Assembly: GCA_025453605.1 (NCBI GenBank)
Contig: JALOPZ010000001.1
Coordinates: forward strand, 365,042-429,041
Length of the DNA stretch: 64,000 bases
Origin: Candidatus Margulisiibacteriota bacterium
GTDB lineage: Bacteria; Margulisbacteria; WOR-1; O2-12-FULL-45-9; XYB2-FULL-48-7
Direction: 5' to 3'
Shown: positions 63,215 to 63,777 of the stretch, one piece after another
Layout: the number at the start of each line of letters is the position of its first letter
Numbering within the stretch: position 1 is the first letter of the stretch
Made by a program: the position numbers and the translations under genes
The notes under the pieces: model-generated
The model's database searches: none
What the model saw: the letters and a program-made list of their open reading frames with translations, nothing else
Told to the model about the DNA's origin: nothing

Positions 63215-63250
63215 CGCAGGTGGTTGGTTAACACAAACCCTGCCTGGTTT
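63215..63250. repeat. Left arm of an imperfect inverted repeat flanking the four-helix-bundle gene
   Basis: The reverse complement GGGTTTGTGTTAACCAACCACCTGC is about 80% identical to GGGTTTAATGTTAGCCAACCACTTTGC at 63751-63777. Confidence 0.5.
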
Positions 63251-63295
63251 AACGTCCATCCACCCGCGCCAGTTCTGCGTCAGCCCTCCACCCAG

Positions 63296-63676
63296 CTAGA
63301 CTCGCTTAACCTCCCCTTGGGCCGCTTTAGCGCCGATAAACCTCCCCAACGCCGGCTCCAGCGTCCCCATCAAACACATCAGCCGGTCGTAATCTTGCTG
63401 GGGGACCAACTGCCGCTTAAAGGCTCTTATTACCCAAACCCTAGTCTCCTGCATCGATCCTCGAGATATGTATAAGAACCAGAGATTATCTTTTTTATGA
63501 TGCCTTCCGTATCCTTCAGCTATGTTGGCCCCGATCGAATCAGCTGATCTGACTATCTGCTTACCGATCGTATCCTTGGCAAATACTGACCAAGGAACAA
63601 CCAAATCCCAGACCTTTTCTGATATTTCTTCCGCAATTTGATAAATCCTCAGATCTTCAACCCGATCATATCCCAT
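63296..63676 (-). CDS. Four-helix-bundle protein (23S rRNA intervening-sequence protein / Avd-like family)
   Basis: MGYDRVEDLRIYQIAEEISEKVWDLV...RSADSIGANIAEGYGR... matches the TIGR02436-type four-helix-bundle signature. Confidence 0.8.
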   Translation of the reverse strand: MGYDRVEDLRIYQIAEEISEKVWDLVVPWSVFAKDTIGKQIVRSADSIGANIAEGYGRHHKKDNLWFLYISRGSMQETRVWVIRAFKRQLVPQQDYDRLMCLMGTLEPALGRFIGAKAAQGEVKRV

Positions 63677-63737
63677 ATCCCCTCCCAACCACCCGCGAAC
63701 GCTTTGCGAGAGTAACCACCCAGGTGATTAACGCGCT

Positions 63738-63777
63738 GGCTAACCACCTGGGCGGGTTTAATGTTAGCCAACCACTT
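63738..63777. repeat. Right arm of an imperfect inverted repeat flanking the four-helix-bundle gene
   Basis: Contains CTAACCACCTGGGCGGGTTTAATGTTAGCCAACCAC. Pairs with 63215-63250. Shares TAACCACCTGGG with 47082-47094. Confidence 0.5.

What the first reader, a model, noticed from the sequence alone, without database searches (positions are those of the whole stretch)
63215..63777. Stand-alone IVS/Avd-type four-helix-bundle gene bracketed by inverted repeats, outside any rRNA
Genes of this family classically sit inside the RNase III-excised intervening-sequence stem-loop of 23S rRNA, or serve as Avd in diversity-generating retroelements. Here the gene lies between DUF1015 and DUF3276 protein genes.

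It is still flanked by an imperfect inverted repeat:
- 63215-63250, read as its reverse complement: GGGTTTGTGTTAACCAACCACCTGC;
- 63751-63777: GGGTTTAATGTTAGCCAACCACTTTGC.

These could form the base of a long stem, like an IVS transplanted into a non-rRNA context, so a mobile or RNA-processing element is plausible. No reverse transcriptase or TR/VR pair is visible, so a DGR is not supported.
Basis: partly seen in the sequence, partly recalled or inferred. Interest (0 to 1): 0.5.

Follow-up and report, generated by a model that had tools for sequence, protein, structure and literature searches.

The report
Old IVS-type gene cassette, decayed repeats
A small four-helix-bundle gene of the kind found inside ribosomal-RNA intervening sequences sits between ordinary protein genes, and the inverted repeat around it is real but weak: it looks like the worn remnant of repeat arrays that bracket this gene family in many bacteria, not a working stem.

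Summary
A PF05635/TIGR02436 four-helix-bundle gene lies at 63296-63676 (-), between DUF1015 and DUF3276. A 25-nt, 80% inverted repeat flanks it, with the right arm 3 nt off the stated coordinates.

The arms are not a private bracket. They are single members of about 27-nt tandem units with a GGTGGTT core. These units tile every spacer of a conserved orf44-DUF3276-DUF3276-IVP cluster and the 3' end of the convergent DUF1015.

The named stem has negligible probability. Two local hairpins dominate, and flank-to-flank pairing equals that of control flanks.

The gene follows DUF3276 in five lineages (59-78% identity, dS saturated), so it is old and vertically inherited. There is no rRNA, no reverse transcriptase and no TR/VR pair.

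Across other loci, however, PF05635 ORFs are typically bracketed by inverted arrays of 7-8-nt tandem repeats:
- An inverted-repeat score of 15 or more was found at 18 of 33 loci, against 1 of 77 control ORFs.
- The G-rich arm lies upstream in 23 of 25 cases.
- A sister genome has such a cassette inserted exactly between comM and orf44, a junction that is empty here.

For this copy it is supported only as a decayed, long-resident example.

The parts
63296..63676 (-). IVP gene (126 aa), PF05635/TIGR02436 four-helix-bundle protein. ATG at 63676; Shine-Dalgarno GGGAGGGG at 63679-63686.
63677..63776 (-). Upstream array filling the DUF3276-IVP spacer. It has about 3.5 units of 27-28 nt with a GGTGGTT core (63776-63749, 63748-63721, 63720-63694, 63693-63677). 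It starts within the last codons of DUF3276 (stop 63764-63766) and ends in the Shine-Dalgarno sequence.
63716..63755 (.). Local hairpin (17 bp) built from a core and an inverted partial core. Pairing probability is 0.97 on the - strand RNA and 0.64 on the + strand RNA. No U-tract follows it.
   Evidence: (I6)
63237..63292 (-). Two units in the same sense as the IVP gene, starting 4 nt after its stop codon (GGTGGAGGGCTGACG..., GGTGGATGGACG...).
   Evidence: D2
63166..63245 (+). Three units in the opposite orientation, that is, in the sense of DUF1015, starting 25 nt after its stop (GGTGATAAC..., GGTGGATAATC..., GGTGGTTGGTTAAC...).
63205..63278 (.). Local hairpin with 23-nt arms (63205-63227 / 63256-63278). 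It forms where the IVP-sense units meet the DUF1015-sense units. Pairing probability is 0.88 (-) and 0.76 (+).
63217..63241 (.).
   Evidence: I1
63754..63780 (.). It overlaps the last codons of DUF3276.
   Evidence: I1
61804..63141 (+). DUF1015 gene, convergent with the IVP gene.
63764..64000 (-). DUF3276 (PUR-like) gene, cut by the window end; the full gene runs to 64009 in L001. A second DUF3276 paralogue, a 44-aa ORF and comM lie further upstream, outside the window, with repeat arrays in every spacer.
47071..47115 (-). Other site of the same core motif, in the rpoZ-coaBC spacer (GGTGGTTGG..., then GGTGGTTAGGTGGTTGGGATG running into the start codon).
46523..46545 (-). Three tandem 8-mers (GGTGGTTA GGTGGTTG GGTGGTT) lying in frame inside the coaBC linker; they encode VVRWLGG.

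Best explanation
The region is an old, resident copy of a PF05635 'IVS-type' gene cassette. The cassette fills the 622-nt spacer between the DUF3276 operon and the convergent DUF1015 gene.

Its layout, read in the gene's sense, is:
- a G-rich repeat array,
- the Shine-Dalgarno sequence,
- the 126-aa four-helix-bundle ORF,
- two same-sense repeat units,
- three units in inverted orientation.

In the gene family at large, the upstream and downstream arrays are reverse complements of each other and bracket the ORF. That is the same architecture as the terminal inverted repeats of 23S rRNA intervening sequences, which RNase III cuts.

In this lineage the repeats have grown into 27-nt units. Only the 7-9-nt core (GGTGGTTRG) is kept. 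The units have also spread to the other spacers of the operon.

Shown: the gene, the arrays, their orientation, the synteny, the selection on the protein, the family-wide bracket, and a filled/empty site pair for a second cassette.

Inferred:
- The gene is co-transcribed as the last gene of the DUF3276 operon.
- The RNA folds into two local hairpins (63716-63755 and 63205-63278) rather than one closing stem.
- The same-sense arrays act at the RNA level as repeated binding sites. The basic IVP pentamer itself is the favoured candidate; the PUR-like DUF3276 proteins are the alternative.
- The inverted units give a hairpin at the convergence point that stabilises or ends both transcripts.
For: Gene identity and fold.

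Arrays in this genome and its relatives:
- GGTGGTTRG occurs 8 times in the window against 0.59 expected.
- Units of 27-28 nt tile all four spacers of the cluster.
- A unit HMM finds them only at 63.1-64.5 kb in 73.7 kb, and at the orthologous spacers in L006 and L009.
- Units are always in the sense of the gene they follow, including the 3' end of DUF1015 in L001, L006, L009 and L139.

Age and selection:
- DUF3276 followed by IVP is conserved in the window, L006, L009, L013 and L135, at 59-78% identity.
- dN is 0.16-0.33 while dS is saturated. Neutral spacers should therefore be randomised, yet the arrays persist.

Family-wide bracket:
- Inverted 7-8-nt arrays surround PF05635 ORFs in cyanobacterial plasmids (L158, L159), Mucilaginibacter, Verrucomicrobiota and others (L160-L166), and many IMG/VR contigs.
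- An inverted-repeat score of 15 or more occurs at 13/24 plus 5/9 loci, against 1/77 control ORFs.
- Tandem repeats cover 24.5% of IVP flanks against 3.3% elsewhere.
- The upstream arm has G>C in 23/25 cases, p = 2e-5.
- L162 (52% identical protein) has the same GGTGGTT core upstream.
- L139 (68% identical, same clade) keeps a score of 17 between its upstream array and the inverted array next to DUF1015.
- L171 shows the same 'local hairpin on both sides' layout.

Insertion: L009 carries a second cassette (IVP149, 49% identical; arm duplex -38.5 kcal/mol) exactly between the comM stop and the orf44 Shine-Dalgarno. That junction is 5 nt long in L001; in L006 and L013 the two genes likewise abut directly.

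Precedent: Coxiella's rRNA IVS has a 28-bp terminal stem cut by RNase III, and tandem heptamers just upstream of its S23p ORF (PMC4990558).
Against: - Arrays with the same core also lie where no IVP gene is near: orf44|DUF3276 in L002, L003 and L005, rpoZ|coaBC and inside coaBC in the window, and several 3' ends in L013. They may be a general genome feature rather than cassette ends.
- In L006, L013 and L135 the IVP gene is flanked by same-sense arrays only.
- The window's inverted-repeat score (11) lies within the control range.
- Long-range pairing equals the controls.
- Most arrays are no more structured than shuffles, z = 0 to -0.8.
- Neither protein binding nor RNase III cutting has been tested.
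- The IMG/VR loci are of unknown taxonomy and are not fully independent of one another.
Confidence: 0.55

Rival explanations
1. The repeats are a generic intergenic repeat family of this lineage, like REP/BIME or cyanobacterial STRR, and have nothing to do with the IVP gene. Each transcript simply trails sense-oriented units. The inverted repeat arises only because DUF1015 and the IVP gene converge.
For: - Arrays occur in every spacer of the cluster.
- Arrays lie between orf44 and DUF3276 in loci without an IVP gene.
- Arrays occur in rpoZ|coaBC and inside coaBC.
- DUF1015 keeps its own trailing array in L006, although two genes separate it from the IVP gene.
- The IVP gene in L006, L013 and L135 has no inverted arm.
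Against: - There is a family-wide, polar association of PF05635 ORFs with inverted arrays in unrelated loci.
- The same core lies upstream of a 52%-identical IVP gene in a verrucomicrobial contig.
- DUF1015 has no trailing array in L002-L005, which lack the IVP gene.
- L139 retains a score of 17.
Confidence: 0.3
2. The arrays are binding sites for the two PUR-like DUF3276 proteins encoded next to them. These sites would give post-transcriptional autoregulation of the operon, and the IVP gene would be a passenger.
For: - Arrays are densest around the DUF3276 genes.
- A G/U-rich 8-mer array precedes DUF3276 in all lineages examined, including those without an IVP gene.
- The arrays are sense-oriented and mostly unstructured.
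- Both DUF3276 proteins are basic, pI 9.0-9.8.
Against: - The motif is G/T-rich rather than purine-rich.
- It does not explain the inverted arrays around PF05635 genes in genomes where no DUF3276 gene is nearby.
- No binding data exist.
Confidence: 0.12
3. The repeats are just ordinary intrinsic terminators of DUF3276, IVP and DUF1015.
For: - Both local hairpins sit directly 3' of genes.
- Relatives have canonical GC-hairpin plus T-run terminators at the same place after DUF3276 (L002, L003, L005, L013).
Against: - No U-tract follows either hairpin, and the terminator scan finds nothing there.
- The arrays extend well beyond the hairpins, up to start codons.
- The units are tandem, not single palindromes.
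Confidence: 0.05
4. The gene is the Avd component of a diversity-generating retroelement.
For: The model resembles Avd (4dwl, 8ube; TM about 0.7).
Against: - No reverse transcriptase lies within 10 kb.
- No TR/VR pair was found.
- Sequence identity to Avd is only 9-11%.
Confidence: 0.02
5. The GGTGGTT arrays are DnaA-box-like sites of a replication origin next to parAB-gidB.
For: - The motif resembles the Thermotoga DnaA box AAACCTACCACC (from memory).
- parB, parA and gidB lie 4-7 kb away.
Against: - Cumulative GC skew falls steadily through the region with no turning point.
- Motif orientation follows transcription.
- The arrays abut stop and start codons.
Confidence: 0.03

Closest known systems
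23S rRNA intervening sequences carrying an S23p/PF05635 ORF (Leptospira, Coxiella, Xanthomonas)
   Same: - The same protein family.
- An element of about 430-620 nt with the ORF between terminal inverted repeats.
- Coxiella's IVS also has tandem heptamers just upstream of the ORF (PMC4990558).
- Horizontal spread followed by vertical maintenance.
   Different: - This copy is not in rRNA; it lies between protein genes.
- The arms are 80% complementary over 25 nt, not a near-perfect 28-bp stem.
- The closing stem is not favoured.
- The repeats are 27-nt units that also tile neighbouring spacers.
Free-standing 'four helix bundle protein' genes (TIGR02436), common in Bacteroidota, Cyanobacteria and others
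   Same: A member by HMM and by fold. It sits in a short spacer inside or at the end of an operon, as in L137, L160, L162, L165 and L166.
   Different: None for the protein. Papers found by the searches I ran in the searchable library did not describe flanking tandem-repeat arrays for free-standing members.
REP/BIME elements and their RAYT genes
   Same: Short repeats lie in intergenic spacers, often at 3' ends and between convergent genes. A small gene is flanked by the repeats in inverted orientation. 'Empty' repeat hairpins occur elsewhere (L141, L150, L152).
   Different: The IVP protein is a four-helix bundle with no HUH/Y1 transposase motifs. The repeats are tandem arrays of 7-8 nt (here 27 nt), not single 35-nt palindromes. 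No mobilising activity is known.
Cyanobacterial STRR heptamer repeats
   Same: Tandem heptamers lie in intergenic DNA. TTGGTCA-type heptamers flank the IVP genes in L137 and L160. Margulisbacteria are a sister group of Cyanobacteria.
   Different: The period here is 8 or 27 nt, with a different core. The link of STRR to PF05635 genes rests on my loci, not on the literature.
Avd of diversity-generating retroelements
   Same: The same fold (TM about 0.7) and a basic protein (pI 9.1).
   Different: No RT and no TR/VR pair; only 9-11% identity.

Membership tests
PF05635 / TIGR02436 four-helix-bundle protein | Profile score above the curated cut-off | tested here: met
   PF05635 89.4 bits against 33.8; TIGR02436 84.9 bits against 24
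PF05635 / TIGR02436 four-helix-bundle protein | Up-down four-helix bundle like 2gsc and 2rld | tested here: met
   pLDDT 91.7, helices 10-26, 31-56, 61-87 and 93-119; 2gsc TM 0.85, rmsd 1.2
PF05635 / TIGR02436 four-helix-bundle protein | Homopentameric ring | not tested
   Only a monomer was modelled
23S rRNA intervening sequence (IVS) | Inserted in a helix (9, 25 or 45) of a 23S (or 16S) rRNA gene | tested here: not met
   No Rfam family at gathering score in the 64 kb. The neighbours are DUF1015 and DUF3276
23S rRNA intervening sequence (IVS) | Terminal inverted repeats forming a long, near-perfect stem | tested here: not met
   25 nt at 80%. Probability of that stem is 1e-7 to 1e-14. Long-range pairing is 19.0 against 20.8 +/- 15.6 in controls
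23S rRNA intervening sequence (IVS) | Excision by RNase III | not testable with these tools
   Needs RNA end mapping or an in vitro assay
23S rRNA intervening sequence (IVS) | Carries an S23p-family ORF | tested here: met
PF05635 cassette bracketed by inverted short tandem repeats (pattern defined here) | G-rich tandem array between the upstream gene and the Shine-Dalgarno sequence | tested here: met
   63677-63776, 3.5 units; polarity as in 23/25 loci
PF05635 cassette bracketed by inverted short tandem repeats (pattern defined here) | Reverse-complement array just downstream of the ORF (inverted-repeat score of 15 or more) | tested here: inconclusive
   Three inverted units at 63166-63245, but only after two same-sense units. 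The score is 11. The clade member L139 scores 17
PF05635 cassette bracketed by inverted short tandem repeats (pattern defined here) | Presence/absence polymorphism at a precise site | tested here: inconclusive
   At this slot, relatives hold other small genes: ORF6N in L002 and L005, two small ORFs in L003. A clean filled/empty pair exists only for the second cassette in L009
Diversity-generating retroelement | Adjacent reverse transcriptase | tested here: not met
   No RT among the genes within 10 kb
Diversity-generating retroelement | TR/VR repeat pair | tested here: not met
   The only direct repeats of 35 nt or more with over 73% identity are the arrays themselves; three unrelated 35-40-nt pairs are 71-73% identical
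REP/RAYT system | HUH/Y1 transposase gene flanked by the repeats | tested here: not met
   The flanked gene is PF05635 only
Intrinsic terminator | GC-rich hairpin followed by a U-tract | tested here: not met
   No terminator-like site at either hairpin

The most novel reading that the evidence does not exclude
PF05635 genes together with their flanking inverted arrays of 7-8-nt tandem repeats form a widespread class of small, polar gene cassette that I did not find described in the searchable literature. The cassette inserts into intergenic spacers of operons. The classical 23S rRNA intervening sequences would be one special case of it. 'Empty' array hairpins would be its ORF-less relatives, as REPINs are to RAYTs. 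The arrays would pair in the host transcript so that RNase III or folding removes the insert, and the pentameric protein would recognise its own repeats. On this reading the window holds an old copy whose arrays have expanded to 27-nt units and spread through the DUF3276 operon.
Probability: 0.35. Interest if true: 0.8.

Novelty: new variant of a known kind. Interest (0 to 1): 0.55.

Why it matters
The origin of rRNA intervening sequences and the function of the very large PF05635 'four helix bundle' family are still unresolved; PMC4990558 lists only hypotheses.

This locus, set beside its relatives, gives three concrete handles:
- The ORF comes with polar, self-complementary tandem-repeat arrays in many loci with different repeat sequences and G+C contents.
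- One sister genome shows a precise insertion of such a cassette.
- In this lineage the arrays have changed form and spread.

That makes three experiments obvious: test RNase III processing of operon mRNAs at these stems, test binding of the pentamer to its repeats, and test co-evolution of protein and repeat.

For this copy alone the message is more modest. It is a resident gene with decayed repeats, not an active element.

Tried and rejected
- Metagenome scan for GGTGGTT-N19-21-GGTGGTT-N19-21-GGTGGTT. None resembled the unit (best 16/27 including the 7 forced bases). Rejected because cumulative GC skew shows no turning point.\n- Structured-RNA idea for the arrays. Rfam found nothing credible. 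Most arrays fold no better than shuffles. Internal unit hairpins keep only a 2-bp CG/CG core (inspection of units).\n- 'Expected long-range pairs' as a stem measure. The baseline is high (controls 20.8 +/- 15.6, maximum 58.6), so I used it only to show that the window does not exceed the controls.\n- Sense versus antisense stem energies. No consistent asymmetry.\n- Anti-Shine-Dalgarno pairing of GGUGGUU with 16S GAUCACC. This was noted by hand only. It was not pursued because many lineages use heptamers that are not Shine-Dalgarno-like.\n- PADLOC defence models. No hit for the IVP protein.\n- Plasmid tblastn gave only 4 hits at E <= 1e-8. Three were read; two show the bracket and one (L157) does not.\n- Literature searches for a description of repeat arrays around free-standing PF05635 genes found none.
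Full report
**1. What is in the sequence**

The ORF at 63296-63676 on the minus strand encodes 126 aa. It starts MGYDRVEDLRIYQ... and is preceded by the Shine-Dalgarno sequence GGGAGGGG.
- It matches PF05635 (23S_rRNA_IVP) at E 2.1e-25 and TIGR02436 'four helix bundle protein', both above their curated cut-offs.
- An AlphaFold model built on 33 homologues has pLDDT 91.7 and four helices.
- Its best solved matches are Xcc0516 (2gsc, TM 0.85), BT_0352 (2rld) and, more distantly, Avd of the Bordetella phage DGR (sequence-level hits).
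- The contig is a 790-kb JGI metagenome contig. Its closest genomes are Margulisbacteria/Saganbacteria MAGs.

**2. The inverted repeat**

The repeat exists. Its arms are 63220-63244 and 63751-63775: 25 nt, 80% complementary, 506 nt apart.

It is above chance but weak:
- The gapless score is 11 against 6.8 in shuffles; 12 of 2000 shuffles reach it.
- The same score is reached by 2 of 78 control ORFs.

**3. What the arms are**

Both arms are single copies of a repeat unit.
- On the gene-sense strand the core GGTGGTTRG occurs 8 times in the window against 0.59 expected. The copies cluster at three places.
- L001 is the same contig, extended 9.7 kb beyond the window end. There, units of 27-28 nt fill every spacer of a co-directional cluster: comM, a 44-aa ORF, DUF3276, DUF3276, IVP. 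The consensus unit is GGTGGTTAACCTCGCGAAACGAACGCA.
- Arrays begin at or within stop codons and run into the next Shine-Dalgarno sequence.
- After the IVP stop come two units in the same sense. Then come three units in the opposite orientation, which is the sense of the convergent DUF1015, starting 25 nt after its stop.
The right arm is the first unit of the DUF3276-IVP spacer.
- A unit HMM finds full units only at 63.1-64.5 kb in the 73.7 kb available, and at the orthologous spacers of two related contigs.

**4.

No.
- In a 659-nt transcript of either strand, the named stem has probability of about 1e-7 (+) or 1e-14 (-).
- Two local hairpins dominate: 63205-63278 (0.76 / 0.88) and 63716-63755 (0.64 / 0.97).
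- Counted without regard to register, the flanks are expected to form 19.0 long-range pairs. Thirty control flank pairs from the same genome, placed around the same ORF, give 20.8 +/- 15.6.
- Neither hairpin is followed by a U-tract. A consensus scan finds no terminator or sigma-70-type promoter in the cluster.
- Most arrays are no more structured than shuffled sequence.

**5. History of the gene**

Homologues at 78, 71, 62 and 59% identity sit in the same place, directly after DUF3276, in four other lineages: L006, L009, L013 and L135. This holds even where the downstream neighbour differs.
- Flanking housekeeping proteins are 82-90% identical, and the relationships are congruent.
- dN is 0.16-0.33 while dS is saturated. 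The protein is under purifying selection, and neutral DNA should have been randomised between these genomes.
- More distant relatives have no IVP gene in the slot. In L002, L003 and L005, DUF1015 is 72-74% identical. L002 and L005 hold an ORF6N gene there, which matches the PADLOC candidate PDC-S05. L003 holds two small ORFs.
- In L006 two genes separate the IVP gene from DUF1015. Each keeps its own array.
- There is no rRNA, no reverse transcriptase within 10 kb, no TR/VR pair and no GC-skew turning point.

**6. The wider pattern**

Looking at PF05635 genes elsewhere changed the picture. In contigs with G+C from 32 to 70%, the ORF is typically hugged by tandem arrays of 7-nt repeats. The sequence of the repeat differs from case to case, but the upstream and downstream arrays are reverse complements of each other.

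Examples of upstream / downstream repeats:
- (GGGAACA)n / (TGTTCCC)n on a Nostoc plasmid.
- (GGGAAAA)n / (TTTTCCC)n on a Geminocystis plasmid.
- (TAGTCAT)n / (ATGACTA)n in Mucilaginibacter.
- (TTGGTCA)n / (TGACCAA)n between an SNF2 helicase gene and a 266-aa ORF that precedes an MmeI-type methylase gene.
- (GGGAGTA)n / (TACTCCC)n, (GTGGTAC)n / (GTACCAC)n, (TCGGCNT)n / (GCCGAAN)n and others in IMG/VR contigs.

Numbers:
- A gapless inverted-repeat score of 15 or more is reached at 13 of 24 and 5 of 9 loci. Among control ORFs in the same loci it is reached by 1 of 77.
- Tandem repeats cover 24.5% of the 120-nt IVP flanks against 3.3% elsewhere.
- The arrangement is polar: the upstream arm is G-rich in 23 of 25 cases.
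- The same contigs also hold 'empty' array hairpins with no ORF.
- One locus (L171) has a local array hairpin on each side of the ORF, as in the window.
- A verrucomicrobial IVP gene (52% identical) has TTGGTGGTTGGTGGTTAG upstream, the same core as here.

Within the window's own clade:
- L139 (68% identical) still scores 17 between its upstream 8-mer array and an inverted array next to the DUF1015 stop.
- L009 carries a second cassette. It encodes a 149-aa IVP, 49% identical, flanked by (GATGGATA)n and its complement, with an arm duplex of -38.5 kcal/mol. It is inserted exactly between the comM stop and the orf44 Shine-Dalgarno. That junction is only 5 nt long in L001; in L006 and L013 the two genes likewise abut directly.

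Literature context: the Coxiella IVS paper reports a 28-bp terminal stem cut by RNase III and tandem heptamers just upstream of the S23p ORF. It lists 'remnant of transposition' and 'mobile element' only as hypotheses (PMC4990558). I found no paper in the searchable library that describes such arrays around free-standing members.

**7. Interpretation**

The most economical reading is as follows. The window holds an old copy of this cassette type, lodged between the DUF3276 operon and the convergent DUF1015. Its arrays have the family polarity. They have drifted into 27-nt units that keep only the core. Same-sense units have been added after the ORF, and arrays with the same core also occupy the other spacers.

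How it works now is inferred, not shown:
- The gene is co-transcribed with DUF3276.
- Two local hairpins form rather than a closing stem.
- The arrays are sense-strand, mostly single-stranded, and serve as repeated binding sites.
- The basic IVP pentamer (pI 9.1) is my favoured ligand, because repeat sequence changes with IVP lineage.
- The PUR-like DUF3276 pair is the alternative, by analogy with BpuR, which binds its own mRNA (PMC6736767).

The main rival is that the arrays are a generic repeat family of these genomes and the inverted repeat is incidental. This rival keeps real weight, because arrays precede DUF3276 in genomes that lack the IVP gene at this locus, and they occur in rpoZ|coaBC and even inside coaBC.

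**8. Limits**
- The control ORFs are mechanical, not curated genes.
- Several IMG/VR loci are near-duplicates and are of unknown taxonomy.
- The genome's own rRNA operons could not be read.
- Nothing about RNA processing or protein binding has been tested.

**9. Verdict**

I rate it a new variant of a known kind, with interest 0.55. That interest comes mainly from the family-wide bracket and the filled/empty site that this locus led to.

Noticed in passing
window 46523-46545 (-): Three tandem 8-mers (GGTGGTTA GGTGGTTG GGTGGTT) lie in frame in the linker between the CoaC and CoaB halves of coaBC, encoding VVRWLGG. The same repeat that fills spacers has been tolerated inside a coding sequence.
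   Followed up: partly
window 47071-47115 (-): The 45-nt rpoZ-coaBC spacer is almost entirely made of the GGTGGTT core motif, running straight into the coaBC start codon (GGTGGTTAGGTGGTTGGGATG).
   Followed up: partly
L009 371-820, compared with L001 9044-9050: A second PF05635 cassette (149 aa) with inverted (GATGGATA)n arrays is inserted exactly between comM and orf44 in one sister genome. It is absent in three others. This is a clean filled/empty pair.
   Followed up: yes
L001 9050-9184 (just outside the window, about 64493-64627 in window numbering): A 43-44-aa ORF (MYRVVYQLPFNSIREIYMPSDELQxWLRWHWLRERIISYEEV) follows comM in every lineage examined. It is 84-93% identical, so better conserved than its neighbours. 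It has no Pfam or NCBIfam hit.
   Followed up: partly
L005 5338-5835 (-), L002 5328-5837 (-): In relatives lacking the IVP gene, the same slot after DUF3276 holds an ORF6N-domain gene. It matches the PADLOC candidate defence family PDC-S05 (E 4e-57). ORF6N genes also sit just upstream of DUF3276 in L013 and L135. The neighbourhood is a hotspot for small accessory genes.
   Followed up: partly
L150 3608-3674; L152 2335-2417; L141 3023-3104; L165 1354-1496 and 3682-3817: These are 'empty' hairpins made of a heptamer array and its reverse-complement array, with no ORF in the loop. They occur in the same contigs that carry bracketed PF05635 genes.
   Followed up: partly
25 PF05635 loci: The bracket is polar. 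The arm upstream of the ORF has G>C on the sense strand in 23 of 25 cases. Simple selection for a symmetrical hairpin would not predict this.
   Followed up: partly
L166 2858-2896; L178; L009 767-793: In some cassettes the downstream inverted array lies inside the last codons of the IVP ORF, so the C-terminal tail of the protein is encoded by the repeat.
   Followed up: no
L001 9288-9530 and 9668-9913: Two tandem single-repeat DUF3276 (PUR-like) paralogues, 54% identical, both basic. They could form a heterodimeric PUR domain.
   Followed up: no
L006 4487-4786, L009 1331-1630: The called DUF3276 genes are 99 aa instead of 77-81 aa. The gene calls read through repeat units: at the N-terminus in L009 (VVRWLG) and at both ends in L006. 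These are probably annotation artefacts of the arrays.
   Followed up: no
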